In this document: one piece after another, positions 24,978 to 42,100 of the stretch
How the letters are laid out: each line of letters begins with the position of its first letter
Numbering within the stretch: the stretch's first letter is position 1
Assembly: GCA_964430885.1 (NCBI GenBank)
Contig: CAYSHM010000008.1
Span: 9,154 to 73,153 of the forward strand
Length of the DNA: 64,000 nucleotides
Direction: 5' to 3'
Source of the DNA: an uncultured archaeon
Lineage (GTDB): Archaea; Thermoplasmatota; Penumbrarchaeia; JASLWR01
Program-made: the position numbers and the translations under genes
Notes under the pieces: model-generated
Databases searched by the model: none
What the model was told of the DNA's origin: nothing
Seen by the model: the letters and a program-made list of their open reading frames with translations, nothing else

Positions 24978-25376
24978 TCATTCTTTCTTTTCCGGATCAC
25001 GATCCCTTCTTGAAAAGGTGTTCACATACAGTCCGCCTCTGGGGCTCCACCGGATATCCACCGTGATCCATTCCGCCTGACAGGCATCGAAAAGTACTTG
25101 TGCTATCTCCTCGGTTATGTATTCCTGCCAGTTCCGCATATTCCTCCAGGAGGAAAGATAGTCTCTCACCGATTTGCCTTCAAGTATACTTCCGTCAGGT
25201 TTGTAGTTAATTGACAGGTTCCCCTGGTCGTGTCTCCCCGATAGGGGGCAAAGGGATTGAAATTCCTGAAATATGATCTCAACTTCCGGTGTATGGCCCT
25301 TTGAGGGAATAACCACCAGTCCTTCTGTGTCCGGAGTAAATGTCTCCGCTTCCGCTGCCTTGGAATAGTCAGTCAT
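24978..25376 (-). CDS. queF: QueF-family T-fold protein (preQ0 reductase-like, divergent)
   Basis: EFQSLCPLSGRHD (catalytic Cys/Asp), degenerate QueF motif EGKSVRDYL, conserved Glu in WQE, SPRGG. Confidence 0.75.
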   Translation of the reverse strand: MTDYSKAAEAETFTPDTEGLVVIPSKGHTPEVEIIFQEFQSLCPLSGRHDQGNLSINYKPDGSILEGKSVRDYLSSWRNMRNWQEYITEEIAQVLFDACQAEWITVDIRWSPRGGLYVNTFSRRDRDPEKKE

Positions 25377-27758: not shown

Positions 27759-28628
27759 TCAGTTATCCTCACTTATTCTGGGCAGAAGCGAGACTATCTT
27801 GTCCCATGTGGTTGCATCCTCCACAATATCCGGTTCCCAGAGGTTGCCCTCGCTCTCAACCTTGACAATGGAATAACCTATGAAATAATTATAGGAATTA
27901 TCGCCGGGATTTGCCCAGATCAGCATTACTGCTGTAACGTCCCCCTTGACCCGCTCACTAGAGCTCACGCCTACTGTGGCCTTTGCAGCATACCTGTAAT
28001 ATTCCACACTCTGACCGTCTATCTCATATTCATAGGTCTTGATCTCCCTGAGCTCCAGGGTGCGGAAGTTCCTGAATGACATCATCTCGTCCAATCTGTC
28101 CTTTGCGTATTTGTAGCACATTGAACTGGGGGTATCGTCCAGGGTTTTAATGCAGCCTAAATGGAATTGACCGAAGAAAGGAGGTTCTCGTGAATTCTGG
28201 TCAAGCCTATTGGTGTAGGTTGTCTCCTCTTGCCGGATTGGAATTATCTTGCTCCTGTAGATGGTCCGATCCTTCTCAAAGGCCTTCTCGCGGTAGAAAC
28301 GGACGTCCACGGGCTGGAACATATAACCTGAACCTATGGTATTGGGTTCTCCGGGATAATAATAATCAAGCTGGTCCTCGGGTACATCCGATAGTGAGGT
28401 CTGTCCAACCCCGTAATACAGAAAGGCGATATATGTGGTAGTGGCTATTATGATGGCAACAAGCACCACCAATACTATCCGGTAAAGGGACTTTGATTTT
28501 TTCTTTTTTTTGGCTCCCGTTTTTTTTTCCCCGGCCTTGTTCTCCCCTTTTTCTTCTTCCACCTCCGGTACTACCTCGAGGGCGGGAGTATTTTCTTCCG
28601 ATTTATCTTCCCGGGGATCAAAGGCCAT
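27759..28628 (-). CDS. Membrane-anchored hypothetical protein
   Basis: Charged N-terminal tail, Lys cluster, single TM helix and a soluble domain; SD-like AGGTG upstream; no family recognised. Confidence 0.65.
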   Translation of the reverse strand: MAFDPREDKSEENTPALEVVPEVEEEKGENKAGEKKTGAKKKKKSKSLYRIVLVVLVAIIIATTTYIAFLYYGVGQTSLSDVPEDQLDYYYPGEPNTIGSGYMFQPVDVRFYREKAFEKDRTIYRSKIIPIRQEETTYTNRLDQNSREPPFFGQFHLGCIKTLDDTPSSMCYKYAKDRLDEMMSFRNFRTLELREIKTYEYEIDGQSVEYYRYAAKATVGVSSSERVKGDVTAVMLIWANPGDNSYNYFIGYSIVKVESEGNLWEPDIVEDATTWDKIVSLLPRISEDN

Positions 28629-28900
28629 GAATTTACACCTGCGGAATTCTGAATACTGGTAATCTGTAATCCTGGATATATGAAACTTACGTGATTATAT
28701 ATCTATCTGCATATTTGTACTCGATGTTTTGGTAAGGATCATAAAATGCGAATCGATCGGAAATACGGGCACATCCGTCTTATTGAACATACTTGGATTA
28801 ATCATAAAAAGAATAATATATGCATGATACCATAACTTTTCAGCCTCTATACCCTTTTACAAGAAGGCAATCCAGAGAAAAACCAGGGATCGGGATCATT

Positions 28901-29617
28901 ATGCCGGGAGAACAGAACAAGTATGACACTTCAATAACCAGCTTCACTCCTGACGGCAGGGTGCTTCAGGTGGAATACGCTAGAAAGGCAGTGGGCAGAG
29001 GCGCGCTCTCATTTGCCATGAAATACCGGAATGGTATTCTGCTAATGGCTGACCATCAATCCCGCTCAAGACTCATCGAGGAATCCTTCAGGGAAAAGAT
29101 CACAAAGATCAATGAAAGATGCTGGGGAGTATCTTCCGGACTGGTGGCCGACTCGCGCATTCTGATCAACTATGCCAGAAGAATGTCCGTCTATAACAAG
29201 GTAAAATATGACGAACCCATCGATATCAGGATGATGGTATCTAGAATATGCAATATCAAGAGGGCCATGACCCAGTACGGGGGTTCCCGGCCCTTCGGCG
29301 TATCAATGCTTTTCTGCGGCATTCAGGACAATGAGAGGTTCATTTTCAAAACTGATCCCAGCGGTGCATTTTCCGAATACAACATAACCGCCATCGGCCA
29401 TGGTTCCGAAGGTGTTAAGGAAGCCTATAACGATCTCCATGATGATTTCACGGATAATTATTCCCTTGAGGAATCCTTCAAATACATCCTGGAGATATTG
29501 AAACGTTCCAAAGAGGATTTCATTCCGGATAATCTGGAGATCTGCGTTATTGACAAAAAGGAGCAGAGCAATTACGATTACGGGGATTTTCTCAAAAAGT
29601 TCAGCATTGAATTGTGA
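28901..29617 (+). CDS. psmA: Proteasome alpha subunit (divergent, possibly a paralogue)
   Basis: YDTSITSFTPDGRVLQVEYARKAV, SGLVADSRIL, TQYGGSRPFGVSML, TDPSG, AIGHG. Start moved from 28820 to the ATG at 28901. Confidence 0.88.
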   Translation: MPGEQNKYDTSITSFTPDGRVLQVEYARKAVGRGALSFAMKYRNGILLMADHQSRSRLIEESFREKITKINERCWGVSSGLVADSRILINYARRMSVYNKVKYDEPIDIRMMVSRICNIKRAMTQYGGSRPFGVSMLFCGIQDNERFIFKTDPSGAFSEYNITAIGHGSEGVKEAYNDLHDDFTDNYSLEESFKYILEILKRSKEDFIPDNLEICVIDKKEQSNYDYGDFLKKFSIEL

Positions 29618-29739
29618 TAATTTATCAATTATGAATATGAACGGATTCTCTGGAGCACCAGACCTTTTTCAGCAGAAAGATACCAAGGGGAAGGATTGAT
29701 GCCTGCAGATATCGGATTGTACATTATCAGGTCGATCAT

Positions 29740-30081
29740 ATGGATAAATCAAAACCGGAGATCATTACAATAGAGAAACTCAACCACATCATTTCTTCTC
29801 ACCCCTCGGGCACCTGTATTGCGGTCAGAGTAACCCCTGGATCATCTGAAAATGGAATATCCGGAATTGATCAATGGAGGAAATCGCTTAAGATAAAACT
29901 GGTACAGCCAGCGGTCAAGGGAAAGGCCAACAGAGGTTTGATAGAATATCTGGGGACCATTTTCGGCAGAGATCATTCCATAGAGCTCATTCACGGCCAA
30001 ACATCAAGGGATAAGAGAGTTCTTATCAAGGGTCTGGTAAAGGACGCCTGCCTGGACTTGCTTGCTGATAAGATTTCATGA
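29740..30081 (+). CDS. DUF167 (YggU/UPF0235) family protein
   Basis: VRVTPGS, PAVKGKANRGL, GQTSRDKRV. Confidence 0.88.
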   Translation: MDKSKPEIITIEKLNHIISSHPSGTCIAVRVTPGSSENGISGIDQWRKSLKIKLVQPAVKGKANRGLIEYLGTIFGRDHSIELIHGQTSRDKRVLIKGLVKDACLDLLADKIS

Positions 30082-30124
30082 TTTCCATTAACCAAAATTA
30101 CCCATTACAAGGAGTGCAGCTTGC

Positions 30125-30514
30125 ATGAAGGGAAAGGAGATACTTGAGGACCTTGAAAGGATCTTGGCTGGACTTTTGGAGAGAAACATAGGGACACCCG
30201 TTGTGGTAGAGGGAAAACACGATGTGGATTCCCTTAGGAATCTGGGATTGAAAGGTGAGATAATCTCCTATAACAGGGGCAAGGGATTGGTGGAGTTCAG
30301 CGAATGGCTGAAGGAAAAATACGATTCTGTAATATTGCTTACCGATTGGGACACCAGGGGTGTTCAGCTCATGAAGGGTTTAAGAGAACAGCTTACTGCC
30401 CTAGATATCACGGTGCAAGACGATATCTGGATAGAATTACTGAAACTCGTAACAAAAGAGATAAGATGCGTAGAGGATTTGGATAATCTGATTTTCAGAT
30501 TAAGAGAAGAATAG
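30125..30514 (+). CDS. Small stand-alone TOPRIM domain protein
   Basis: VVVEGKHD and ILLTDWDTRG TOPRIM motifs, plus EDL. Confidence 0.88.
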   Translation: MKGKEILEDLERILAGLLERNIGTPVVVEGKHDVDSLRNLGLKGEIISYNRGKGLVEFSEWLKEKYDSVILLTDWDTRGVQLMKGLREQLTALDITVQDDIWIELLKLVTKEIRCVEDLDNLIFRLREE

Positions 30515-30597
30515 AATGTTCAAGAAAAAAAACAATCCCGGATTCGAATCTCCTTATCCATACCCGGGAACATATTATGGAAAAATTTTCGATTGTT

Positions 30598-30996
30598 CTA
30601 TATCAGATATGCAGTCAGGACAATCGCCATAGCAAGTACAAGACCGAACTTTAGAACTGAATCCTTTGTGTTCATTATACCGAACAGAAGTGCGATGGCA
30701 GTCAGCAGTCCGCCTATGTTGATTATAAGACGGCCTACAAAACTCATTGCTTTAAATGCATCTGCATCGGTGATAAAGGAGGTATTTATGTTCATGAGCA
30801 ATCCCCCGATGAACATGATGCCAAAACCGATTACTGCAAAAATTATGGTTTTTTTCATTTTTTTCTCGGTCTTATGCCTGAAGAAATTATCATATTTGTA
30901 TTGTTTTCCTTCTGATTGAACTGGTACTTCTCTTTCCGGATATCCGCTAGGAAGTCTTTTTTGAGATCCGTATGGCGGTGGTGGGTATTGTGTCAT
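30598..30996 (-). CDS. Small three-TM membrane protein with Pro-rich N-terminus
   Basis: MTQYPPPPYG start preceded by GAGGTGA SD; three hydrophobic helices. Confidence 0.65.
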   Translation of the reverse strand: MTQYPPPPYGSQKRLPSGYPEREVPVQSEGKQYKYDNFFRHKTEKKMKKTIIFAVIGFGIMFIGGLLMNINTSFITDADAFKAMSFVGRLIINIGGLLTAIALLFGIMNTKDSVLKFGLVLAMAIVLTAYLI

Positions 30997-31159
30997 ATGT
31001 ATCACCTCATGTTTTAGCAAGCGTCAATAAATTTACCTATTTATATATTATTCGGTCTAATATTAGGCTGGTTAATATTCAATATGTGCACATCATACGC
31101 CAAAACTCCATTGGCGGGATCAAGAAAAATGATTCAATAACAACTTATTAGGACATTTC

Positions 31160-31786
31160 TCACTCCCATTCTTCAAGTGCCCTTTCCAGACTCTTAAGGT
31201 TTTCCTTGCACCTTTTCAGATGATGCAGTGCCCGATTATAAAGATATTCTAGTTGATCAGTATCCGGATAAATCCGGCCATTCTCTCCCAGGGGAACATG
31301 AAGTGTCTCACTGCTCAGCAGTTCAACTGTGATCTTTGTTATTCTGCTGCCTTCCCCGTTTAGCCTCAAGGATCTTATGGTCGAGTACTTGAATGAACTC
31401 TGCTGTCCCAGGTTCCTTAATCTGACACTGCTCTTTAGACCTGCACATTCTATATGGAAGATGGGGGACTGTACCATGAGGTACAGATTTGATCCAGCCT
31501 TCCATTGGATAATTTCCTGCTTGAATTCTTCCAGGGTAGGTGCATTATGCCATTTCTTCAAGACACTCGATTCCTGTTTATCACCCACGTTCTTGAATTC
31601 CAGAAGCTGGATCCGGCCAGAACAGGAACTTGTGGTCATGTATTCATTTCGGGAATTTATGAGGTGCAGCAGAGGCTGAACCTCCGAATCCACAAGTCCC
31701 TGATCTATGAGACCTTGAAGCTCTTTGAGCCTTTTGTTCTTATTCCCTATTGGACCAGTATTTGCAGTGAGCATTGACATCCCCAT
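31160..31786 (-). CDS. taw3: tRNA(Phe) wyosine-derivative methyltransferase Taw3/TYW3
   Basis: GLVDSEVQPLLHLIN, TTSSCSGRI, KWH, PIFHIEC, FKYS. Confidence 0.88.
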   Translation of the reverse strand: MGMSMLTANTGPIGNKNKRLKELQGLIDQGLVDSEVQPLLHLINSRNEYMTTSSCSGRIQLLEFKNVGDKQESSVLKKWHNAPTLEEFKQEIIQWKAGSNLYLMVQSPIFHIECAGLKSSVRLRNLGQQSSFKYSTIRSLRLNGEGSRITKITVELLSSETLHVPLGENGRIYPDTDQLEYLYNRALHHLKRCKENLKSLERALEEWE

Positions 31787-31894
31787 GGCTGTAAACTATT
31801 ATACCTATTTATCATTATCAACTCAAATTCAGTAATAATAGGTCTAAGAAAATAAAAAGAGACTTGAAATTGAGGGATAGCTTGTTTGTAGAAA

Positions 31895-32077
31895 AAGTTG
31901 ATAAAAATAACGAGAAGGGTACCATAGTATACCACCATAGCTTACTAAGGTACCCAACTCTAGGAGGAGATACATAGAGCGTTATTGTGTATTATTCTGT
32001 TATGAATTGAGGCGGGCCCCGAAAGACCCGCCAAGCGGAGGAACAAACCAGCAGATAAACCCCTTCCCTCTGGCTAC
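31895..32077 (-). ncRNA. Candidate structured RNA or structured 3' UTR (three tandem hairpins ending in a U-rich tract)
   Basis: Hairpins at about 32046-32075, 32011-32032 (GGCGGGUCU-UUCG-GGGCCCGCC on minus) and 31917-31955 (12/13-bp inverted repeat). G-U pairs favour the minus strand. Confidence 0.35.
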
Positions 32078-32105
32078 TACTGACCTGATATGATACTTTG
32101 TTAAT

Positions 32106-32510
32106 CTAATATCTCAATTCTTCTATCTCATGCTCGAGATGTTTTACCCTTGCCAAAGCCTTCTCGTGTTCCAATTCCTTGGCCTTAAGCATTTCATTCT
32201 CAACCCGCACCTTCTCTTCCATGTTCTCCTTGTAATCCTGGAGCAACTTTATCACCAGGAATTCCAGGTTCAACACTTCTCCTTTCTGGATCACATTCCG
32301 CTCCAGCCATTTCAGAAGCCGTTTCGGAATTCTGAATACCTGCGTATCTGCATTGACGGACACGGAATGTCGATGGAGCATATCTGCGACACTTTTCCGC
32401 AGAAAGTCGCTCCGGGACCTGAACTTTTTCTTGAATACTAGGGAATCGATCTCATCGATAACTTGGGGATTCTCACGGAAATTCAGAATCGACTGCTCTT
32501 CATCGATCAT
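32106..32510 (-). CDS. Ribbon-helix-helix (CopG/MetJ-like) protein with second RHH-like unit and coiled coil
   Basis: LNFR...IDEIDSLV...FRSRSDFLRKSV, then VFRIPKRLLKWLE; heptad-rich C-terminus; GAGGTGAGG SD upstream. Confidence 0.72.
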   Translation of the reverse strand: MIDEEQSILNFRENPQVIDEIDSLVFKKKFRSRSDFLRKSVADMLHRHSVSVNADTQVFRIPKRLLKWLERNVIQKGEVLNLEFLVIKLLQDYKENMEEKVRVENEMLKAKELEHEKALARVKHLEHEIEELRY

Positions 32511-32525
32511 TTGCCCTCACCTCTT

Positions 32526-32860
32526 GTAATATAATATAATATTTAATACTTAAAAATTACCCCACTTTTTTGTTGATTCCGCAGGAAATCCCCAAGATTT
32601 TGTATTACTTTTTTAGTAGTTATTTTCCCTCTCTCTACATAGGCATAAAACGTATTATTATATATAGTTTCCCCCCATTATTCACCCAGTAATAAATCAA
32701 AATTAAAAATATTACAAATTTTAAATAATATATTACTAAAATTTAATTGTATTACGATTTTATTACGAAGAATAATAACATTATGCATTCTAAATAAAAT
32801 AAAATTATAAGAACATATATTTGAATAATATTTAAAAAAAATAAAATAATATTTAAAAAA
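32526..32860. promoter_or_regulatory. AT-rich intergenic region with repeated TATTAC/GTAATA motifs and a 16-bp direct repeat
   Basis: TATTAC at 32603, 32710, 32731, 32750, 32761; GTAATA at 32526 and 32689; AATAATATTTAAAAAA at 32824 and 32845. Confidence 0.5.
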
Positions 32861-32903
32861 TTTATGATTTCGTTTATAAAAAATGTATAATTCAAAAAAG
32901 GAA

Positions 32904-34100
32904 CTATAATAAGGGTCTGCCCCTTATGAGCATTGCATCCCCAAAAGAATAGAAGCGGTACTCACTCTCTATTGCTTCACGGTAGGTTTTTAAAATCCTA
33001 TCCCTTCCGCAGTAAGCGCTGATCATCATGATTAGGGTCGATCTCGGCAGGTGAAAATTGGTGAGAAAGAAATTCGAAGGAGTCTTGAATCTATAGGGTG
33101 GATAAATAAAAATCCCGGTGTTTCCGCTATAAGGTCTCAGCCGGTCATGTTTGGAGAACAATGTTTCAAGGGTCCTCATTGTTGTGGTTCCGACAACCCA
33201 TATACGATCGCCATTGTCCAGAGCCTGATTCACCAGCTTCGAACATTCTTCACTGACTGAAATGAACTCCATGTCCATCTCATGTTCGTCAACCCTTTCA
33301 GCCTTTACAGGTCTGAAGGTCCCTGTGCCGACATGGAGGGTCACCTGGGTTCTAGTGATGCCTATGTCATCGATTTTTTTCAGCAATCCTTCTGTAAAAT
33401 GCAGACCTGCTGTTGGAGCAGCAATAGCACCTGGATCTCCGGCGTAGATGGTCTGGTATCGGTCATCCCTGTCCAGCTCCTTCTTGATATAGGGAGGAGT
33501 GGGCATTACTCCTACGGCATCCAATATATTCTGAAGGGTAATTCCATCTTCCCCTGAAAAATGAATTCCGGTCCCTACCGATATCCAATCCTCTCTTGAT
33601 CGGAGCCATTCAAACAAACCATCCCCTTCAAAGAAACTGATCAAATACAATCCTTCGTGGATTCTTTTCTCAACAAACACCGTCAGGGGAATATCATCCA
33701 TGAAAAGCTTGGATGATGGTTTGATATTCTTACCCTTCAAGAATGCCTTCCATTTATTTGATTTAATTGGACGGTCTGCACATAGCATAGCCCTGCCCTC
33801 TCCGTGCAGAGAATCCATCAGTATCTCCACCCTTCCCCCGGTTACCTTTTTGGCAAACAACCGGGCCGGGATCACTTTCGTATCATTTACTATGAGTAGA
33901 TCCCCAGGTTCGAAAATATCCAGTATCTGATGGAATATTCTATGAGATACACACCCGCTCTTATTATCAAGCACTAACAACCTGGATGAATCCCTGGGCT
34001 CTATAGGCTCCTGGGCAATAAGCTCCCTCGGAAGATGATAATCATAATTGTCAGTCCGGTTCATATCCTCGCTCAAGTTATCCTTTCCCTTATCTATCAA
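32904..34100 (-). CDS. queA: S-adenosylmethionine:tRNA ribosyltransferase-isomerase
   Basis: YDYHLPRELIAQEP, NDTKVIPARL, PPYI, YQTIYA, AAPTAGLHFT, TLHVGTGTFRPV, VGTTTMRTLET, TNFHLPRSTL, YRFYSFGDAMLI. Confidence 0.95.
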   Translation of the reverse strand: MIDKGKDNLSEDMNRTDNYDYHLPRELIAQEPIEPRDSSRLLVLDNKSGCVSHRIFHQILDIFEPGDLLIVNDTKVIPARLFAKKVTGGRVEILMDSLHGEGRAMLCADRPIKSNKWKAFLKGKNIKPSSKLFMDDIPLTVFVEKRIHEGLYLISFFEGDGLFEWLRSREDWISVGTGIHFSGEDGITLQNILDAVGVMPTPPYIKKELDRDDRYQTIYAGDPGAIAAPTAGLHFTEGLLKKIDDIGITRTQVTLHVGTGTFRPVKAERVDEHEMDMEFISVSEECSKLVNQALDNGDRIWVVGTTTMRTLETLFSKHDRLRPYSGNTGIFIYPPYRFKTPSNFFLTNFHLPRSTLIMMISAYCGRDRILKTYREAIESEYRFYSFGDAMLIRGRPLL

Positions 34101-34137
34101 TAAAATGATTATTAGTCCAAAGAAATATACCGAAGGT

Positions 34138-34905
34138 TCAATCAGCAGTAAAATGGAAGGTCATATTGGCATTGGATGACCTAAGTTCATCCAGGGAAGG
34201 GTAACCCATGGCCCTTGCTGTCCTCTCGTCAATATTGCCCTTTTCATCCAGCATCTTTCTCAGCATGTCCAATCTTATAATCTTCTTGGGATTGCTGCCT
34301 AACAGCTTCGATATGCCGTCAATATGCCCATCCCCGACAACAGCGAGAACATGAGGATAGAGTTTTGATAAACGCAGTATCTTTGCAGCCATATACCGGT
34401 TGCGATCATCAATCAGAGCTTTTTTGATATGAGGATAATGTTTGCCTATCACTGAAAGATATTTTTCCGGATTATCCCTGAACTTCTGCAATTCCTTCTC
34501 TATACGCTTCTTTTTCAAAAATTGACCAGCTATAGCTCCGAAGATCAGCATGACCTTCTCCTTGAAGGAAAGCATTTCGAGGAGACCTCCGCCTTGGCGG
34601 CTGTCTGGAGAAACGGTGGGAACATCAATAAATGCCACAGGAATCCCCATATCCTTTGCCACCTCTGTTGCGGCAAGCATCTCATCACCCACCTTGCTGT
34701 CATACCTCAAGGCCACTTTCTGCTGAAAATTCGAAAGAAGCTTATAAACCAAGGGTGTCGCCGAGCCCCGTTCCCCTGTCAATATGGCCCGGTACCTGTG
34801 TTTGTCAAGTTCGATGCCGATTACATTGGGCTGGGATATCTGTATTACCCTTTGAAGCCCCTTTCTGATTTTTATAACATGAGCTATCCCGATCAGAGTT
34901 ATCAT
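34138..34905 (-). CDS. TraB/PrgY/GumN family protein
   Basis: LIGIAHV, IELDKHR, GDEMLAA, LIDDRNRYMA, AVVGDGHIDGI. Confidence 0.85.
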   Translation of the reverse strand: MITLIGIAHVIKIRKGLQRVIQISQPNVIGIELDKHRYRAILTGERGSATPLVYKLLSNFQQKVALRYDSKVGDEMLAATEVAKDMGIPVAFIDVPTVSPDSRQGGGLLEMLSFKEKVMLIFGAIAGQFLKKKRIEKELQKFRDNPEKYLSVIGKHYPHIKKALIDDRNRYMAAKILRLSKLYPHVLAVVGDGHIDGISKLLGSNPKKIIRLDMLRKMLDEKGNIDERTARAMGYPSLDELRSSNANMTFHFTAD

Positions 34906-34978
34906 TATCTACAGCTCCCAATCTCTATCTGCGGGTTGAACATCTTCAATCGGATGGATAAAATTGCTGATCCCTTCC

Positions 34979-35137
34979 TTATTCATTCTGCAGGGGCAGT
35001 ATGCGGTTGAGCTCGGAATAATACCTTGTAAAGAGGTTTATGACCTCATGAAAATTCTCTTCTGTCTTGGAGGTGTTGATTATATGGGAGGCAGTTAATA
35101 CTGCTGATAGCAGTTCCAATCGTTCACATCGATCCAT
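34979..35137 (-). CDS. Small hypothetical protein (52 aa)
   Basis: Below the track cutoff: MDRCERLELLSAVLTASHIINTSKTEENFHEVINLFTRYYSELNRILPLQNE. GAGG SD about 7 nt upstream and an AT-rich TATA-like box further upstream. Confidence 0.5.
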   Translation of the reverse strand: MDRCERLELLSAVLTASHIINTSKTEENFHEVINLFTRYYSELNRILPLQNE

Positions 35138-35256
35138 GGTAAAACCTCGTTTTCAGTTCATAAAGGAGAACATAAGATATATATTATTTCGAAGGAAAGG
35201 TCAGGAAAGATAAATTTATTTTCCACCGGATTCTCATCTATGCAAAGTTTATTTTG

Positions 35257-36219
35257 CTAAACTGGATATTCTTCAATACTTTTTGAGTATTTTATCCGTT
35301 CCCACAGCTTGAGATGGAATCTGGAGAATAGAACGCATATGACCACAAGGGGAAATGCAGCTATTACATCAATGGCGTAATGATACCTTAAGTACATGGT
35401 GGATGTTATCAAGAGAGTTGTAATGGGAAGCATGAAGAACAGTGTTCTTCTATCCGTTCTGAACATACTGTAAGTGACAAGAATAAAAAGCCCAGAATGC
35501 ATGCTTGGGAAACAATCATAGGCAGTTGACCTGACAGATTTAAAAATATGTTCATTGAATTTGGTCAGGGACCATCCCCCCAGTTCACTAGTGAAATCCA
35601 GGGAGTAATGATATTTTGGGCCCTCAACCGGAAATGCTATGAAGAACATAAGAGCAATATAATGCATAAAGATGGTGGTAAGCTCCAGTTCCCTGTAGGT
35701 TCTCTCCTTTCCCTTGATATAGACAAAGAAATATACAAAAGGTACAAATAAATAAATAAGATAGAAAATGGACATTGTTTCAGTGAGCAGATCTGAATAG
35801 AGCGACTGCATCGTGAAGACGGGTGATCTTCCGAATATAATTTCGTCTATAAGGAGTGCTTCGCTGTCATAGATTCTGTTTGGGGTTCCGAAAAAAGAAA
35901 GATTCTGATATATTATAACAAGGGGTACGAAATGAAGGAGCGATGAGCGGAGCCTTTTCTCTCTCTTGATCAGTTCTTCCCTGCTCTTCGTCCCCGCTCG
36001 GATCTTTTTCAATAAGAGACGTGTTCTTAACTTCGGAAGGAGGAAAGCGCCCAATAGTGCCGCTGCGGGGATAAGGATATCTAAATTCCCCTGCTCCAAT
36101 CTATCCAGGAAAAGCACTGCAAAAAGTATGTAAACCGGAAAGAAAAGAAGAGTGACCGTATGAACAGGCCCAATATCCAGAAGGATCCCGCCAAATCCTC
36201 GTCTATTCTCTGAGCTCAT
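35257..36219 (-). CDS. PAP2 superfamily membrane enzyme (Aur1/IPC-synthase-like subgroup)
   Basis: FPVEGP, DCFPSMHSG, STMYLRYHYAIDVIA; multiple TM helices. Confidence 0.82.
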   Translation of the reverse strand: MSSENRRGFGGILLDIGPVHTVTLLFFPVYILFAVLFLDRLEQGNLDILIPAAALLGAFLLPKLRTRLLLKKIRAGTKSREELIKREKRLRSSLLHFVPLVIIYQNLSFFGTPNRIYDSEALLIDEIIFGRSPVFTMQSLYSDLLTETMSIFYLIYLFVPFVYFFVYIKGKERTYRELELTTIFMHYIALMFFIAFPVEGPKYHYSLDFTSELGGWSLTKFNEHIFKSVRSTAYDCFPSMHSGLFILVTYSMFRTDRRTLFFMLPITTLLITSTMYLRYHYAIDVIAAFPLVVICVLFSRFHLKLWERIKYSKSIEEYPV

Positions 36220-36362
36220 AGTAATTGTTTAAATATATCTATTCATTATTAAGGTTTTCCAAGGGTCAGGCTTTTTATAAAATCAAGTTATAGTGAAAAG
36301 TTACTGTTATGATCCCCTTACCGAAGTAGGGATTTGGTCAGCACAGCAAAGAAAAGGGTGAA

Positions 36363-37442
36363 ATGATGTCCATAGTTTCCATTCCCGATGATGAATCCAT
36401 AAGAAGGTATCTGCAGAAAAGATACGGGAAGGTATCAGATATAAAATGCATAAGATTGGGCGCGGGTGTCCACGGTGAAGGCTACCGGGTATCCTTTAGA
36501 AGCAATGCTTTTAAGGGAGAAATGAACCTGGTTCTGAAAACCCTTTCACCGCAGAACTTCGGACATGATTACATGGCTGATCGGGCCTCGGTCAATCTGC
36601 TTGCAAAGGACAGCTATTCCAAGCTTCCCGGACACGTCCGCTGTGTGGATGTCATGGCATACAATGAGAAAGACCTCTATTCGGTAAAAGGCTCAAAGGA
36701 GTTCTATGTTCTGATGCAGGAAGCAAAGGGGCATGAATATTTCGGGGACCTGAAGGATATACTTTCAAGGGGTGATCTGAACGAGCGGGATATCAAGAGG
36801 GCAAAGGCTCTAGCGGATTACCTCATCAATATACATTCTACGAAATACAAAGGCGATAATGCCAAATCCCTCTACAGGCGGAAGATACGTGATACCGTGG
36901 GTCACGGCGAGTGCCTAATGGGAGTACTGGACACCTACGAGGATTGGCCTTTTATAAAGCGTAAAGATATGGTTGAAATAGTCTCAAAGAGCATCAGCCA
37001 TTGGGACCGTTTGAAGGACAATATGGACCGACTATGTCAGGTGCACGGTGATTTCCACCCTGGTAATATCTGGTTTGATGAGGATGACAATATAGTACTA
37101 TTGGACCGGTCAAGGGGTATATGGGGAGAACCGGCTGATGATCTTTTCTGTCTGCTTGTCAACTATCTTTTCTATTCAATTCTTCATACCGGTGATTTCA
37201 GCGGTCCTTTCAGAGAGCTCTTTGAATTGGTGCACAGCAGATATATCGGTATGACATGGGATAATAATATCAATCTTGCCGGACCGCTCTTTCTTGCATT
37301 CCGGATACCTGTACTTACAAACCCACATTTCTACCCTCATGTGGATGATACAACCAGAACCAAACTGATCGGATTTGCCAAAAATGTACTGGATGATCAG
37401 GAATTCAGTATTGACAGAATACGGGATTATTTGAAGTTATGA
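36363..37442 (+). CDS. Aminoglycoside phosphotransferase/choline kinase-like small-molecule kinase
   Basis: Gly-rich LGAGVHGEGY, VLK, HGDFHPGNIW catalytic loop, LLDRSRG...GEPADD. Confidence 0.8.
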   Translation: MMSIVSIPDDESIRRYLQKRYGKVSDIKCIRLGAGVHGEGYRVSFRSNAFKGEMNLVLKTLSPQNFGHDYMADRASVNLLAKDSYSKLPGHVRCVDVMAYNEKDLYSVKGSKEFYVLMQEAKGHEYFGDLKDILSRGDLNERDIKRAKALADYLINIHSTKYKGDNAKSLYRRKIRDTVGHGECLMGVLDTYEDWPFIKRKDMVEIVSKSISHWDRLKDNMDRLCQVHGDFHPGNIWFDEDDNIVLLDRSRGIWGEPADDLFCLLVNYLFYSILHTGDFSGPFRELFELVHSRYIGMTWDNNINLAGPLFLAFRIPVLTNPHFYPHVDDTTRTKLIGFAKNVLDDQEFSIDRIRDYLKL

Positions 37443-37547
37443 CGAAGGATTTTTTTTATGGATAAATAAATAATAATAGAACCCCTCATATGCCTGTTTT
37501 AAGATAGAAAACTTGAAGGAGCTATTGACTAGATTACTTTCACAGGG

Positions 37548-38537
37548 ATGATGAATATGGCATCAATATTGCAGATATGGACCGAGAAATACCGTCCGCA
37601 GAAGATAGATGACATCGTCGGACAGGATCCCATCAAGGAACGTCTGAAAGCCTATGTGAGGGAGAAGAACATTCCCAACCTGCTCTTCGCAGGTCCCGCA
37701 GGAACGGGTAAAACCACTGTGGCATTGGCCCTGGCAAAGGAGTTGGCTCCAGACAATTGGAAACAGAATTTCCTTGAACTCAACGCATCGGACGAGAGAG
37801 GCATCTCCATTGTAAGGGAAAAAATAAAGGATTTTGCTAAAACATCCACCTTCGGGGATTCTCTGAGCTTCAAGATGATATTTCTTGACGAATCCGATGC
37901 ACTTACCGGGCCCGCCCAGCATGCCCTTAGAAGGACCATGGAAAGATATACCGGGGGCTGCAGGTTCATACTCAGCTGCAACTATTCTTCAAAGATAATT
38001 GATCCCATTCAATCCAGGTGCGCTCTTTTCAGATTCCCAAAGATACACCGGGAGGACATCAAGGACCATCTCTTCAATATTGCAAAAATGGAGAACCTGG
38101 AGATAGAGGAGGACGGATTTGACGTACTTCTTGAATACGCCAATGGCGACATGAGGAAAGGTATTACAATGCTCCAGGCTGTGGCATCCTCCGAGGGGAG
38201 GATCGATTCCAACGGTATCTACAAGGTATTCAGTATTGTGAATCCCGGGACCATCAAGAAGATACTGGAAACTGCCATCGAAGGTAATTTCAACGCCGCC
38301 AGGACAGAATTGAGGGATCTCATCATCAAGAACGGACTTGCGGGATCTGACATAATAAAGGATATTCACAAGGAGATATTCAATCTGAACATTCCTGATC
38401 GTTCCAAAATGGTCCTGGTGGACAAACTGGCGGAATTCGAATTCAGAATGGTGGAAGGATCAAATGAGATGATCCAGCTTGAGGCACTTATCGCAAATAT
38501 AGCCCTGAATGTCAAGATTGGGAACAAGGATCGTTGA
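37548..38537 (+). CDS. rfcS: Replication factor C small subunit
   Basis: WTEKYRP, GPAGTGKTT, LELNASDERGI, LDESDALT, IQSRC, GDMRK. Confidence 0.96.
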   Translation: MMNMASILQIWTEKYRPQKIDDIVGQDPIKERLKAYVREKNIPNLLFAGPAGTGKTTVALALAKELAPDNWKQNFLELNASDERGISIVREKIKDFAKTSTFGDSLSFKMIFLDESDALTGPAQHALRRTMERYTGGCRFILSCNYSSKIIDPIQSRCALFRFPKIHREDIKDHLFNIAKMENLEIEEDGFDVLLEYANGDMRKGITMLQAVASSEGRIDSNGIYKVFSIVNPGTIKKILETAIEGNFNAARTELRDLIIKNGLAGSDIIKDIHKEIFNLNIPDRSKMVLVDKLAEFEFRMVEGSNEMIQLEALIANIALNVKIGNKDR

Positions 38538-39138: not shown

Positions 39139-42100
39139 TTGAAGAAAAGAACACTGTTTTTAATAGTGGTATCAGGATTATTGCTGATCAGCATCTCTTT
39201 GAACCATGTCAGCTTCGGTTTGAATGCAAGCATCCATAATGATTCCAATGTCGTTGTGGATACTGACAACAAGGCAGAATACCTATACAAAAGCCGGATC
39301 AATGAATCCTATCTAAGTATAAGCGAGAACACTGTAACACTGGGACCCGAGGACAGCGGTAACTTCACTGGCATATGGGTTCACGGTACTGGCACACTCA
39401 TTCTAAACGGATGTGAATTGAATATTGTTCAGGATGAGGGGCATTACGGTGAGTTCAATGTCACTGGTGACGGCAGCCTTAGCATCCTTGGCGGATCAAA
39501 GATTCATATCAACAAAGGCAACTTCTCGTTCAGAGGCCGAAACTTTGAGATGGCCGGAGATTCAGTGATCAAAGTTACAAATATCACAGGGGGCCAGACC
39601 GGAGATCCCCAGGGTTACGGGCTTGAGAGGGACGGAAGACTGGGGAACAATTCTGTTGTGGAGATCATCTCAAAAGAACCTATCACCATCAGCGGCTCGG
39701 AGATATACAGCTACGGCGGGGGAGGTGGAAACGGTGCACCAGGATTGAACGAAGAACTTAAGGATGGTGGAAGAGGCGGTGAAGGAGGGGTAGGTAAAAT
39801 CATAGTGGAAGGACCCCAGATCAATATAATTGAAAACTCCGTATTGAAGGCCGTAGGTGGAGACGGCGGAAAGGGCGGTGAAAGAGCTTTCGGGTCTGAA
39901 CAGGGCAGAGGAGGAGACGGGGCCAAAGGCGGATTCGGAGAGGTAATCATTCAAACAAAGACCAAACAAATGGTCGACCCAAAAATTGGACTTTATTCTT
40001 CTGAGATAAATGCCAGCGGAGGTGTCGGAGGAGAAGCATCCAATGTAATAGGCGATGAGCTTCTCGGAGACGGCGGAGACGGCGGAAATACAAACATGCT
40101 GATACATGCCCATAACGACATAACCTTCAGCGATTGTACGATATATTCCCTGGGTGGAGTGGAAGGTAGAGGTGCGGGGGGCGATGGCGTAGCCGGATAT
40201 GATGACCTGATAATGAGGAGCGAACTGAACGTTGCTACTGGGTCCGATACATTGATCCGGATATCCAAGGATTCCTTCGGTATTGACTGTCCTTCTGGTG
40301 AGAACGAATTGAACAACGTACTCATACTTGACGGGACTGGTGGTCAGGTCAGGCCCTTCAGTGAAAGGGAATCGGTCATAATAATCAAATGGGATGTGAA
40401 TGTCCATGTGATAGATGACTACCAGAGGGAACCGATTTCAAATGCAGAGGTGGAGGTCTTCATCAAAGATGACGATGACAGCTGGGACAGTGTAGGAGCA
40501 GAGAACACGGATTCATCAGGCAACGTTCTCTTCGAGAATGTGGAAGCAAGAAAGATCAAGGGTAATGAACTTGGTCAGGATCAGACTGTAAGGATCATTG
40601 TTAGAAAACACGCTTATGAAACTCAAGCATCAGTTCCACTCTCCAGATCCGTTAAGAAAACTATGATACTGAAGATCCTGAGTCTTGAGATCTCCAAGAT
40701 ATACTACAGGAGCGCTCTAATGGGGAGCGACGGGCTGCTTAAAATTTCCGAATCCAACATCAGGGGCGGCCAGGAGATAGGAGGTATAATCTACATTAAC
40801 GGGACAGCTAGCCTGGAGAACGCAGGCTCATCGGCCTATATAACCGGCGTCACCGTTGCCATCAACGATGGAAAAGCTCAGACCGTAACTGATACAAGTC
40901 AGAATCGTGATTGGTCCGAATGGAGCTTCATTCTGGAGACCGCCCAGTTATCCGGCAAAGGGTCCAAGTCAAAACTGACAAAGCTGTATGATGATGAGAC
41001 CTTGATCCTGGAGTTCGAGGTATCAGAGAACAACGATTTCCTAACAGGTATTCAGCTGCCCATACACATCAACCAGAGCAATCTGAACAATCCTCCTTAT
41101 TGCGAGATCATTTCCATAAACGACCTTGAGGTCGACCCCGAGACAGAGTTCGAGGTCAAGATGCCTCCGGAGAAGCAGACCACAGTGGTAATTAAGGGAG
41201 AATACTTCGACCTAGATAACGGTGATAGAGTTTCGGTGAACAACGTTCGGCTTTCGGTCCAATCAGTGGGTAAGGATGACCGGACCCCGATCTCAAACCT
41301 GGAGAACACGAAAGTTCAGAAATCCGATGAGAACAGCGGCACATGGGAAGTAACCTGGGAACTGAAAACCGCCAATTTCCAGCCAGGATCATATATAATG
41401 TCCATTGATGTAATGGATAATTCCAAATCAAATCCCTACAATGCATCGGACAGCGATCACTTCCAACTTATAGATATTCCTTTCAAGATCATACTGGAAT
41501 CCCCGCCTTCAGCAACAATAGATACTATAGCCGGCGAGAAACTGGAAACATACTGGTCTGATGATGAGGACATACATATTATTGACACTAATACAGCTGT
41601 GGGAGAGAAAAGAATAACCCTGGCATTTGTAGGCAATGGTTTCCATAATGACCCCAATGTGGAAGGGGGATTCAAATATACTTGGAAAGTTCTTAACAAG
41701 ATTACCGCAAAGGAAGTAAATCTAGGCGATAAGGCGTCCTTAAATAATCCCACGCTTTCATTTTCTATTGGAGAGAACGAAGAATATGCCGAGTTCGAAG
41801 TATCATTGAAGGTCTCAGACAGCAGGAGTTATTCCAGTGCTTATACCGAGAATAATAAGGTACTGATAAAACTTCATTACCAAGCACCCCCCCCAAAGAC
41901 AAAGGGGTTCATGGGTGATATCGATGTAATTAGCTTATTTATTACAGGCGAGGACGGTGAGCATGATGACGGCGACGTTCTGCTAATCGGTCTCGTTGTG
42001 ATATATATCCTCGTCGCTCTGTTATTGATCAGAAAGCACAAAGCTATACAGAAGAGAGTGGGTACACGTCTGAAAAACGCCAAACTCAAGATAGAACAGA

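What the first reader, a model, noticed from the sequence alone, without database searches (positions are those of the whole stretch)
32904..34100. Bona fide queA in an archaeal chromosome: possible queuosine pathway in archaea
Seen: an intact QueA with all hallmark motifs and apparent insertions in domain 2, embedded among archaeal genes (taw3, psmA, rfcS), with a QueF-like gene in the same window. Known: QueA converts preQ1-tRNA to epoxyqueuosine at position 34 in bacteria; characterised archaea make archaeosine at position 15 and are generally held to lack queuosine. Inference: this lineage may synthesise Q34 de novo via horizontally acquired genes, alongside archaeal wyosine.
Basis: partly seen in the sequence, partly recalled or inferred. 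Interest (0 to 1): 0.7.

Follow-up and report, generated by a model that had tools for sequence, protein, structure and literature searches.

The report
Bacterial-type queuosine pathway in an archaeon
This archaeal genome carries an intact queA gene together with every other gene needed to make the 'bacterial' tRNA base queuosine, a trait shared by many of its relatives and already noted in print for other archaea, but never yet confirmed by chemistry.

Summary
Window 32904-34100 (-) encodes a full-length QueA that passes both NCBIfam equivalog cut-offs and folds like solved QueAs. It lies among archaeal genes (Taw3, proteasome alpha, RFC small subunit), and its gene order is conserved in another genus, so it is not an assembly chimera.

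The genome has a bacterial-type Tgt with its catalytic, zinc and preQ1-pocket residues conserved. It also has QueH, a QueF (in this window), QueC, QueD and a QueE-family protein, alongside arcTGT and an ArcS-like protein for archaeosine. All four GUN tRNAs carry U33-G34-U35.

The organism is a non-methanogenic Thermoplasmatota archaeon. In 401 sampled genomes of its phylum, 77 have a high-scoring QueA, 73 of those also have bTgt, 63 add QueH, and 39 have all four genes including QueF. QueF was never found outside Q-module genomes (0 of 297). In two trees the archaeal QueAs separate from all sampled bacterial ones.

The idea is not new. Castelle et al. 2021 reported QueA/QueH/Tgt in 34 archaeal genomes, and NCBI already names QueA in Aciduliprofundum boonei. 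The new parts are the lineage, the phylum-wide module and the de novo QueF link. Queuosine itself remains undetected in any archaeon in the literature searched.

The parts
32904..34100 (-). queA: tRNA preQ1(34) S-adenosylmethionine ribosyltransferase-isomerase. The maximal ORF is 398 aa from a TTG; the probable start is the ATG at 34064, giving 386 aa.
   Evidence: ORF. PF02547 385.6 bits, full length. NF001140 406.2 bits (cut-off 324) and TIGR00113 364.8 bits (cut-off 267.45). PDB QueA chains 1vky and 1yy3 at E about 1e-91. AF2 model pLDDT 87.3, matching only QueA structures. Start-codon reasoning.
24978..25376 (-). queF homologue (132 aa, unimodular type): putative NADPH-dependent preQ0 reductase that makes preQ1.
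   Evidence: PF14489 62.4 bits, cut-off 27.3. TIGR03139 77 bits, below its 86.9 cut-off. It aligns only to NADPH-dependent QueF structures, with the catalytic Cys, Asp, Glu and the E-x-K-S...Y...R-N motif conserved. It occurs only in genomes that carry other Q genes: 47 of 47, against 0 of 297.
34138..34905 (-). TraB-family gene immediately upstream of queA on the same strand, 37-73 nt away. It is a conserved neighbour and possibly co-transcribed. Context only; no role in the pathway is claimed.
   Evidence: PF01963 and TIGR00261, below cut-off. TraB-QueA adjacency is conserved in G001 (L020) and G002 (L048).
31160..31786 (-). taw3 (archaeal wyosine-pathway methyltransferase): an archaeal marker 1.1 kb downstream of queA, in conserved synteny.
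   Evidence: PF02676 119.8 bits. NF047731 Taw3 148.7 bits, below its 200 cut-off. The same relative position is seen in G002.
28820..29617 (+). Proteasome alpha subunit (archaeal/eukaryal marker; context).
   Evidence: PF00227 and PF10584.
37548..38537 (+). Replication factor C small subunit (archaeal marker; context). It was used here to place the organism taxonomically.
   Evidence: PF08542 and AAA domains. Named homologues are Thermoplasmata, Thermoplasmatota and Methanomassiliicoccales at 56-59% identity.

Best explanation
The ORF is a genuine, functional queA. It belongs to a complete bacterial-type queuosine pathway native to this uncultured, non-methanogenic Thermoplasmatota archaeon.

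Proposed flow:
- QueD and QueC (contig C2) and a QueE-family protein (C10) make preQ0.
- preQ0 is then split between two routes.
- (a) arcTGT (C15) and an ArcS-like protein (C5) use it to make archaeosine at position 15.
- (b) QueF (this window) reduces free preQ0 to preQ1. The bacterial-type Tgt (C6) exchanges G34 for preQ1 in tRNA-Asp, -Asn, -His and -Tyr. QueA (this window) transfers and isomerises the ribosyl moiety of SAM onto preQ1-tRNA to give epoxyqueuosine. QueH (C10) reduces that to queuosine.

Shown here: gene identities, conserved key residues, native archaeal context, co-occurrence of the genes as a module across the phylum, and separation of archaeal from sampled bacterial QueAs in trees.

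Inferred: enzymatic activities, the tRNA substrates, the actual presence of Q34, and that the module entered archaea by ancient horizontal transfer and was then inherited largely vertically.
For: Identity:
- QueA passes two equivalog cut-offs. It aligns over both conserved domains with T. maritima and B. subtilis QueA, leaving only the expanded middle segment unaligned.
- 52 columns are invariant across the 24 archaeal and bacterial QueAs of alignment A1.
- The AF2 model has pLDDT 87.3. The only Foldseek hits at E <= 0.001 are 4 QueA chains from 1yy3, 1vky and 1wdi.

Partners in the same genome:
- bTgt scores 417.4 bits on TIGR00430 (cut-off 306.75), whereas the separate arcTGT scores 541 bits on TIGR00432.
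- In the alignment to Z. mobilis TGT, counted by hand, D102, D156, C158, Q203, G230, L231, D280, C318/C320/C323 and H349 are conserved. Position 232 is Cys and position 233 is Ile, as in T. maritima. The residue numbers and their roles are recalled, except L231/A232, which names.
- QueH scores 202 bits and keeps the Cys clusters of T. maritima QueH.
- QueC scores 196 bits (cut-off 150). QueD and QueE are best hits but fall below their cut-offs.

Substrates: the tRNAs His-GUG, Asp-GUC, Asn-GUU and Tyr-GUA all have a C32-U33-G34-U35 loop.

Native context: archaeal genes flank queA on both sides. The order APH-like / PAP2 / TraB / QueA / Taw3 is conserved in G002, and TraB-QueA in G001. queH lies beside L7Ae and a TrmB-like gene.

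Distribution in G000 plus 30 relatives:
- QueA in 28 of 31 genomes.
- bTgt over its cut-off in 28 of 31.
- QueH in 23 of 31.
- QueF in 9 of 31.

Distribution in 401 genomes sampled from the phylum:
- QueA in 94, bTgt in 95, QueH in 73, QueF in 47.
- High-scoring QueA in 77, of which 73 have bTgt. 63 have QueA, bTgt and QueH. 39 have all four genes.
- QueF is in 47 of 47 genomes that hold another Q gene and in 0 of the 297 that hold none.

Trees: the named bacterial QueAs fall on one side of a branch, with SH-aLRT 99 in the 68-row tree and 98 in the 75-row tree with 29 named bacterial rows. This family's clade has support of 99-100.
Against: - No chemical or expression evidence exists here. The sequencing-run tool gave no answer, so transcription and read coverage are untested.
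- QueF (77 bits against 86.9), QueD (72 against 89), QueE (176 against 300) and ArcS (345 against 440) all fall below their NCBIfam equivalog cut-offs.
- GTP cyclohydrolase was not searched for.
- queA, tgt and queH are unlinked in this genome, although queA and tgt are adjacent in most relatives.
- This QueA carries about 40 extra residues in its middle domain, and part of that is modelled at low confidence (pLDDT 51-71 around residues 170-190). Their effect on activity is unknown.
- QueA was not found in 3 of the 31 genomes and QueH not in 8 of the 31; most of these genomes are incomplete.
- Related genomes are not independent samples, so the co-occurrence counts overstate the statistical support.
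- The split into 'high-scoring' and 'weak' QueA was made after seeing the scores.
The trees used the quick method and the archaeal backbone is unresolved. Neither donor, direction nor number of transfers is established.
Confidence: 0.8

Rival explanations
1. The genes are real and native, but the pathway's output differs from canonical de novo Q34. Possibilities: it stops at preQ1 or oQ; it serves mainly salvage of environmental preQ0 or preQ1; it modifies another position or another nucleic acid; or the expanded QueA middle domain redirects it to a different substrate.
For: - QueF was not found in 22 of the 31 closest genomes, including 0 of 18 in family f7, all of which still have a TGT hit and most of which have QueA. 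Salvage is therefore plausible in relatives.
- A YhhQ/Vut_1 family transporter is present.
- QueH was not found in 10 of the 73 genomes that have QueA and bTgt.
- The QueA insertions have no solved counterpart.
- 22 genomes of the phylum have bTgt without QueA, and 17 have a divergent QueA-like protein without bTgt. Members of these families can therefore evidently act outside the canonical module.
Against: - This genome has all of QueF, bTgt, QueA and QueH.
- The Tgt keeps the bacterial preQ1-pocket residues and the UGU-containing substrates exist.
- The four genes co-vary as a set in 39 genomes.
- The Vut_1 family also occurs in the archaeal controls that lack QueA, H. volcanii and M. acetivorans, so it does not discriminate.
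Confidence: 0.12
2. Artefact: queA, or the unlinked tgt and queH contigs, come from a bacterial contaminant or a chimeric join in a metagenome-assembled genome.
For: The genome is a 44-contig assembly with an estimated 1.4% contamination. Contig C8 has two runs of N outside the window. tgt's immediate neighbours, a thiolase and a TSP3-repeat protein, are not diagnostic of domain. Read coverage could not be checked.
Against: - There is no N in the window, and archaeal markers lie within about 4 kb on both sides of queA.
- The gene order is the same in independently assembled genomes of two other genera.
- QueA and bTgt are each present in 28 of 31 genomes, including single-contig G012, where they are adjacent. 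They are also present in single-contig G079 and G141.
- In the trees this QueA groups with its own family, not with bacteria.
- GC content around queA (0.41) is within the range of the genome's contigs, 0.395-0.507.
Confidence: 0.02
3. A decaying relic: the genes were acquired once and are now non-functional remnants.
For: There is no expression evidence. The genes are scattered over three contigs here, and QueH and QueF are patchy among relatives.
Against: All the ORFs are intact and full-length with catalytic residues conserved. The genes are retained across 20 or more families of a phylum with family-level clades congruent with taxonomy, which implies long-term purifying selection.
Confidence: 0.03

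Closest known systems
Bacterial QueA (TIGR00113 / PF02547; structures 1VKY from T. maritima and 1YY3 from B. subtilis)
   Same: Both conserved domains align with the solved QueAs at E about 1e-91. It has the same two-domain fold by AF2 and Foldseek. It shares 44-47% identity with Bacillota, Halanaerobiales and Anaerolineae QueAs. It also has the same genomic partners: Tgt, QueF, QueH and QueCDE.
   Different: The host is an archaeon. The protein carries about 40 extra residues in the middle (beta-barrel) domain. It falls outside the clade of all sampled bacterial QueAs. It is unlinked from tgt and sits next to a TraB-family gene and taw3.
Archaeal 'bacterial queuosine pathway' reported by Castelle et al. 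2021 (PMC8204110) in DPANN and Methanosarcinales
   Same: It is the same gene set (QueA, QueH-like/DUF208, bacterial-type Tgt) in archaeal genomes, and the same inference that Q may be made in archaea (passages read). DPANN (Woesearchaeota, Nanoarchaeota) and Methanosarcinales-labelled QueAs are homologues at 45-54% identity.
   Different: - The lineage is Thermoplasmatota, which that paper's main text does not mention in this context. Its Supplementary Table 5 could not be seen and may list such genomes.
- Here the genes are not co-localised, and QueF plus the preQ0 genes make the pathway de novo.
- The phylum-level frequency (77 of 401 sampled genomes) and the tie between QueF and the module are added here.
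NCBI-annotated QueA of Aciduliprofundum boonei T469 and 'Thermoplasmata archaeon' MAGs
   Same: They belong to the same phylum. The QueA of family f36 (handles G079, G141) is 97-100% identical to proteins that NCBI names from Aciduliprofundum. Those genomes also carry bTgt, QueH and QueF.
   Different: They are only 43% identical to the window's QueA over the aligned region, lack the long insertions (332 aa against 398 aa), and belong to a different class. No paper on their function was found.
Archaeosine pathway (arcTGT + ArcS), the canonical archaeal 7-deazaguanine system
   Same: It shares the preQ0 precursor and the TGT superfamily. It is present in this same genome, with arcTGT at 541 bits and an ArcS-like protein at 345 bits.
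   Different: It has a different enzyme (672-aa arcTGT with a PUA domain), a different base (preQ0) and a different position (15). QueA has no role in it.

Membership tests
QueA (tRNA preQ1(34) SAM ribosyltransferase-isomerase; TIGR00113 / NF001140 / PF02547) | Full-length match to the curated equivalog models above their cut-offs | tested here: met
   NF001140 406.2 bits (cut-off 324) and TIGR00113 364.8 bits (cut-off 267.45). PF02547 covers model positions 2-322 of 322. The clade-specific model NF002398 is not passed (232.6 bits against 588).
QueA (tRNA preQ1(34) SAM ribosyltransferase-isomerase; TIGR00113 / NF001140 / PF02547) | The QueA two-domain fold | tested here: met
   AF2 model pLDDT 87.3, pTM 0.86. 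The Foldseek PDB hits at E <= 0.001 are only 1yy3, 1vky and 1wdi (4 chains), with TM normalised to the target of 0.63-0.70. The global rmsd is high (about 9.7 A), which I attribute to domain orientation and the insertions; that attribution was not tested.
QueA (tRNA preQ1(34) SAM ribosyltransferase-isomerase; TIGR00113 / NF001140 / PF02547) | Conservation of the family's invariant sequence blocks | tested here: met
   52 columns are invariant across 24 archaeal and bacterial QueAs, including the blocks PPY, YQT, AAPTAG.HF, GT..T..E, TNFH.P.ST and YRF.S.GD.M. That these blocks are functionally critical is recalled, not tested.
QueA (tRNA preQ1(34) SAM ribosyltransferase-isomerase; TIGR00113 / NF001140 / PF02547) | Co-occurrence with a G34 tRNA-guanine transglycosylase that supplies the preQ1-tRNA substrate | tested here: met
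   bTgt is present in the same genome. 73 of the 77 genomes with a high-scoring QueA also have bTgt.
QueA (tRNA preQ1(34) SAM ribosyltransferase-isomerase; TIGR00113 / NF001140 / PF02547) | Catalytic conversion of preQ1-tRNA and SAM to epoxyqueuosine-tRNA | not testable with these tools
   This needs an enzyme assay or genetic complementation.
Bacterial-type de novo queuosine (Q34) pathway | Bacterial-type Tgt with the catalytic Asp residues, the zinc site and a preQ1-sized pocket | tested here: met
   TIGR00430 417.4 bits (cut-off 306.75). In the alignment to Z. mobilis and T. maritima TGT, D102, D156, C158, Q203, G230, L231, D280, C318/C320/C323 and H349 are conserved and position 233 is Ile. 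Positions were counted by hand; residue roles are recalled, apart from L231/A232, which names.
Bacterial-type de novo queuosine (Q34) pathway | preQ0 reductase QueF (NADPH-dependent, acting on the free base) | tested here: inconclusive
   It passes the Pfam QueF cut-off (62.4 bits against 27.3) but not the equivalog cut-off (TIGR03139, 77 bits against 86.9). The catalytic Cys and the QueF motif are conserved, and it matches only QueF structures. It is restricted to genomes that carry Q genes. The balance favours a true QueF.
Bacterial-type de novo queuosine (Q34) pathway | Epoxyqueuosine reductase (QueG or QueH) | tested here: met
   QueH PF02677 scores 202.1 bits over model positions 1-175 of 175. 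It matches T. maritima QueH 7lc5 at E 6e-35 with the Cys clusters conserved. QueG was not found.
Bacterial-type de novo queuosine (Q34) pathway | preQ0 synthesis genes QueC, QueD and QueE | tested here: met
   QueC TIGR00364 scores 196 bits (cut-off 150). QueD lies next to it: PF01242 76 bits, TIGR03367 72 bits against 89. The QueE-family protein's top five hits are all QueE models, at 176 and 171 bits, below the clade cut-offs. GTP cyclohydrolase was not searched for.
Bacterial-type de novo queuosine (Q34) pathway | Substrate tRNAs with GUN anticodons in a U33-G34-U35 context | tested here: met
   tRNA-His, -Asp, -Asn and -Tyr all have a CUGUN loop. The UGU requirement is recalled; the title of a cited reference seen states it.
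Bacterial-type de novo queuosine (Q34) pathway | The queuosine nucleoside present at position 34 of tRNA | not testable with these tools
   This needs LC-MS/MS or APB gels. No report for any archaeon was found in searches.
Archaeal QueF-like (QueF-L) amidinotransferase of archaeosine synthesis (considered for the window's QueF homologue) | Loss of the NADPH-binding QueF motif, and use in place of ArcS in archaeosine-making genomes | tested here: not met
   The E-x-K-S...Y...R-N motif is retained. An ArcS-like gene is present. The homologue was not found in the 297 sampled genomes that lack the Q genes. The definition of QueF-L is taken from passages of PMC5699537.

The most novel reading that the evidence does not exclude
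Queuosine is not confined to Bacteria and Eukarya. A whole swathe of the archaeal phylum Thermoplasmatota makes Q34 with a module inherited since an ancient acquisition. About one in five sampled genomes carries QueA, at least 20 families are involved, and cultured Aciduliprofundum is among them. Many of these genomes make Q de novo through QueF. They run it side by side with archaeosine from a shared preQ0 pool, so one cell partitions one precursor between a structural D-loop modification and a decoding wobble modification. In this family QueA has also acquired a lineage-specific expansion of its middle domain, which may adapt it to archaeal tRNAs.
Probability: 0.7. Interest if true: 0.65.

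Novelty: new member of a known kind. Interest (0 to 1): 0.45.

Why it matters
Reviews and even a 2026 preprint still present Q as a trait of Bacteria and Eukarya and archaeosine as the archaeal one. If these archaea really make Q34, that domain-level rule is wrong.

It would also raise concrete questions:
- How is preQ0 shared between arcTGT and QueF?
- What does Q do for NAU/NAC decoding in archaeal translation?
- How does Q insertion relate to splicing of intron-containing archaeal tRNA-Tyr?

The full four-gene module is present in genomes whose QueA is 97-100% identical to that of Aciduliprofundum boonei, which I recall is a cultured archaeon. So the question can be settled by mass spectrometry, without relying on uncultured lineages.

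As a discovery it is incremental. The gene-level observation has been in print since 2021 and is in NCBI annotation.

Tried and rejected
- Working assumption that the lineage is Methanosarcinales. This was prompted by a 'Methanosarcinales archaeon' hit and a 'Ca. Methanoperedens' locus. I rejected it: named relatives of the RFC small subunit are Thermoplasmatota, no McrA was found, and the QueA of a sister family is Aciduliprofundum's.
- The search for related loci with the single protein in genome contigs found nothing. The bacterial outgroup is therefore narrow and no donor can be named.
- QueG search: no match; QueH fills that step.
- No tRNA genes lie in the window.
- An ARAGORN call of a 'tRNA-His(ATG)' with a 1466-nt intron on C13 was disregarded as a likely artefact of intron mode.
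- Immediate neighbours of tgt on C6 are not taxonomically informative.
- Supplementary tables of Castelle et al. 2021 could not be opened, so which 22 non-DPANN archaeal genomes they list is unknown.
- Not done: a 'careful' bootstrap tree, an AU test, a search for GTP cyclohydrolase, and a search for the RaSEA partner of ArcS.
Full report
**1. Observation**

The ORF listing finds an ORF at exactly 32904..34100 on the minus strand (398 aa, TTG start).
- It matches Pfam PF02547 (Queuosine_synth) over model positions 2-322 of 322 at 385.6 bits.
- It passes two NCBIfam QueA equivalog cut-offs: NF001140 at 406.2 bits (cut-off 324) and TIGR00113 at 364.8 bits (cut-off 267.45).
- A third, clade-specific model (NF002398) is not passed (232.6 bits against 588).
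- It is the only QueA-family match in the 3.13-Mb, 44-contig genome. That genome is estimated at 91.6% complete with 1.4% contamination.

Against solved structures it aligns with T. maritima (1vky) and B. subtilis (1yy3) QueA at E about 1e-91. An AlphaFold2 model built on a 24-sequence alignment has mean pLDDT 87.3. In Foldseek against the PDB its only hits at E <= 0.001 are four QueA chains from 1yy3, 1vky and 1wdi.

The N-termini of homologues align with Met13, so the real start is probably the ATG at 34064, with GAGG just upstream.

The protein is about 40 residues longer than bacterial QueAs, and the excess lies within residues about 97-195. MAFFT places it as two insertions, about 98-115 and about 159-187, which the closest relatives share in part. 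The first is modelled confidently. The second is a low-confidence helical excursion (pLDDT 51-71). HMMER places the excess somewhat differently, so the exact boundaries depend on the alignment.

**2. Context**

The neighbours are archaeal:
- Taw3 at 31160-31786.
- Proteasome alpha with the A_N signature at 28820-29617.
- RFC small subunit at 37548-38537 and archaeal Nre at 49427-50665.

The window has no N. The gene order APH-like / PAP2 / TraB / QueA / ... / Taw3 recurs in another genus of the same family (G002, locus L048), and TraB-QueA recurs in a third (G001). Independent assemblies sharing this order rule out a chimeric join. GC content around queA (0.41) lies within the range of the genome's contigs.

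**3. The rest of the pathway**

It is present. Contig C6 encodes a 366-aa protein scoring 417.4 bits on TIGR00430 (tRNA guanosine(34) transglycosylase; cut-off 306.75), and only 160.6 bits on the archaeosine TGT model.

In the alignment with Z. mobilis TGT, counting along the chain:
- D102, D156, C158, Q203, G230, L231, D280, the zinc ligands C318/C320/C323 and H349 are conserved.
- Position 232 is Cys and position 233 is Ile, as in T. maritima TGT.
- This is a bulky, preQ1-type pocket, not the queuine-type one.
- Residue roles are recalled, apart from L231/A232, which a review passage names.

The genome also carries:
- QueH at 202 bits, with the Cys clusters of T. maritima QueH conserved. QueG was not found.
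- QueC at 196 bits (cut-off 150) with QueD adjacent.
- A QueE-family radical-SAM protein whose five best NCBIfam hits are all QueE models.
- A YhhQ/Vut_1 family transporter.
- A true arcTGT (541 bits, cut-off 350) and a full-length ArcS-like protein (345 bits, below 440) for archaeosine.

The 'QueF-like gene in the window' is at 24978-25376 (-). It passes the Pfam QueF cut-off but not the TIGR03139 equivalog cut-off (77 bits against 86.9). It aligns only to NADPH-dependent QueF structures. It keeps the catalytic Cys, the substrate-binding Asp and Glu, and the E-x-K-S...Y...R-N motif. Loss of the NADPH-binding site is what defines the archaeosine-making QueF-like enzymes.

All four substrate tRNAs (His-GUG, Asp-GUC, Asn-GUU and intron-containing Tyr-GUA) are present with C32-U33-G34-U35 loops.

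**4. Who is the host?**

I first assumed a Methanosarcinales-type lineage, from labelled hits. That was wrong.
- The RFC small subunit's named relatives are 'Thermoplasmata archaeon', 'Thermoplasmatales archaeon SG8-52-1', 'Candidatus Thermoplasmatota archaeon' and Methanomassiliicoccales, at 56-59% identity.
- No McrA was found.
- The QueA of another family of the same phylum (f36, handle G079) is 100% and 97% identical to proteins that NCBI names from Aciduliprofundum.

The host is therefore an uncultured, non-methanogenic Thermoplasmatota archaeon. Its class was not determined.

**5. Distribution**

| Gene | G000 + 30 closest relatives (31; 9 families, 18 genera of one class) | Even sample of the phylum (401) |
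|---|---|---|
| QueA | 28 | 94, in 58 of 162 genera |
| bTgt | 28 over cut-off | 95 |
| QueH | 23 | 73 |
| QueF | 9, including all 4 of this family | 47 |

Among the 31 genomes, two of the three without QueA also lack bTgt. In one further genome bTgt is cut off by a contig end next to queA.

In most relatives queA and tgt are adjacent, and in two queH joins them. One of these relatives is a single-contig genome (G012). In this family the genes are dispersed.

Overlaps in the phylum sample:
- 77 genomes have a high-scoring QueA, and 73 of them have bTgt. The four exceptions are incomplete genomes, or the gene is truncated or lies at a contig edge.
- 63 genomes have QueA, bTgt and QueH.
- 39 genomes have all four genes.
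- QueF occurs in 47 of 47 genomes that hold another Q gene, and in 0 of the 297 that hold none.

The last point argues that this QueF serves Q and not archaeosine.

Caveats: related genomes are not independent samples. The split between 'high-scoring' and 'weak' QueA was made after seeing the scores. Three large families have no QueA in the sample (0/48, 0/36, 0/53).

**6. Phylogeny**

Two quick maximum-likelihood trees were built (LG+C20+F+G4).
- In the 68-row tree, all named bacterial QueAs fall on one side of a branch with SH-aLRT 99.
- The 75-row tree adds 16 further families of the phylum. Its 29 named bacterial rows plus two unnamed rows fall on one side with SH-aLRT 98.
- Every archaeal sequence lies on the other side. 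That includes the 'Ca. Methanoperedens' locus and the proteins NCBI labels 'Methanosarcinales archaeon' and 'Euryarchaeota archaeon'.
- The window's QueA sits in a clade with its family (support 99-100), and other families are also clades (98-100).
- The archaeal backbone is unresolved.

The data fit an old acquisition followed by mainly vertical descent. They do not establish the donor, the direction or the number of transfers.

**7. Literature**

Castelle et al. [quoted passage not shown] Their Figure 4 is titled for DPANN 'and some Euryarchaeota (Methanosarcinales)'. Thermoplasmatota is not mentioned there in this context. Their Supplementary Table 5 could not be opened and may list more.

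Seven searches found no other paper on Q genes in archaea, and none reporting Q detected in archaeal tRNA. The one paper holding both 'Aciduliprofundum' and 'queuosine' is unrelated. A 2016 review and a 2026 preprint still present Q as bacterial and eukaryal and G+ as archaeal. NCBI's own annotation already names these archaeal proteins QueA.

**8. Verdict**

The most likely mechanism is the canonical one: QueF makes preQ1 from the shared preQ0 pool, bTgt inserts it at G34, QueA builds epoxyqueuosine from SAM, and QueH reduces it to Q, in parallel with archaeosine synthesis.

My confidence is about 0.8 for the native, functional Q pathway, and slightly lower that fully formed Q is the end product.

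In kind it is not new. It is a further archaeal lineage with a pathway already predicted for archaea. The additions here are:
- the Thermoplasmatota placement;
- the module's frequency and co-variation across the phylum;
- the QueF link, which makes the pathway de novo;
- the family-specific QueA expansion;
- a pointer to a cultured archaeon in which the chemistry can be tested.

Noticed in passing
Other genomes of the phylum, e.g. L146 806-1825 (+), L147 765-1829 (-), L148 395-2707 (+), L149 1351-2667 (-): 17 of the 401 sampled genomes, including single-contig G232, carry a divergent QueA-like protein. It scores 182-246 bits on PF02547 and is 25-29% identical to the window's QueA. None of the 17 has bTgt, QueH or QueF. 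It may be a QueA paralogue with a different substrate. Some of its ORFs are long (up to 770 aa as called here) with no Pfam domain in the extra N-terminal part.
   Followed up: partly
Family f21 of the phylum sample (e.g. G042, G366, G222); no loci fetched: 20 of 53 genomes in family f21 have a very high-scoring bacterial-type Tgt (460-481 bits on TIGR00430) but no QueA, QueH or QueF. This 'Tgt-only' state is reminiscent of salvage of a finished base, or of another use of the enzyme.
   Followed up: no
G012:C1:1721922-1724395; G010:C280:1478-4523; G014:C201:20357-23462; compare window 32904-34100 with G000:C6:59520-60620: In most relatives queA and tgt are adjacent, and in two of them queH-tgt-queA form a cluster. 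In this family the three genes are dispersed, and queA instead sits in a conserved TraB-queA-...-taw3 arrangement.
   Followed up: partly
G000:C31:263-386 (-): The only tRNA-Tyr(GUA) gene carries an intron (48 nt as called by ARAGORN) just 3' of the anticodon. If Q is made, the order of Tgt action and splicing becomes a question. A 2025 paper, seen by title and abstract only, reports that Q is inserted before splicing in a eukaryote.
   Followed up: no
window 48615-49415 (+): A 266-aa PP-loop ATPase gives weak hits to NAD_synthase, QueC and ThiI. It lies next to the archaeal Nre gene. It is not the genome's QueC, which is on C2.
   Followed up: no
window 39139-42741 (+), 43635-48200 (+), 54453-63722 (+): Three very large ORFs of 1200, 1521 and 3089 aa. 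The 1200-aa one has no Pfam match at E <= 1e-5. The other two were not examined.
   Followed up: no
window 32106-32510 (-): A 134-aa ORF between queA and taw3 has no Pfam match at E <= 0.001. It has a coiled-coil-looking, Glu/Lys-rich C-terminal half. Whether it is conserved in relatives was not checked.
   Followed up: no
G000:C5:78272-80284 (-): The ArcS-like protein (670 aa) matches the ArcS model end to end, but at 345 bits it falls below the 440-bit equivalog cut-off. It may be a divergent ArcS. Its RaSEA partner was not searched for.
   Followed up: no
window 1-26000 compared with 28000-38000: GC content falls from 0.45-0.51 in the first 26 kb to 0.41-0.44 around queA. This stays within the spread of the genome's contigs (0.395-0.507), and the low-GC stretch includes clearly archaeal genes, so it is not evidence of a recent island.
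   Followed up: partly
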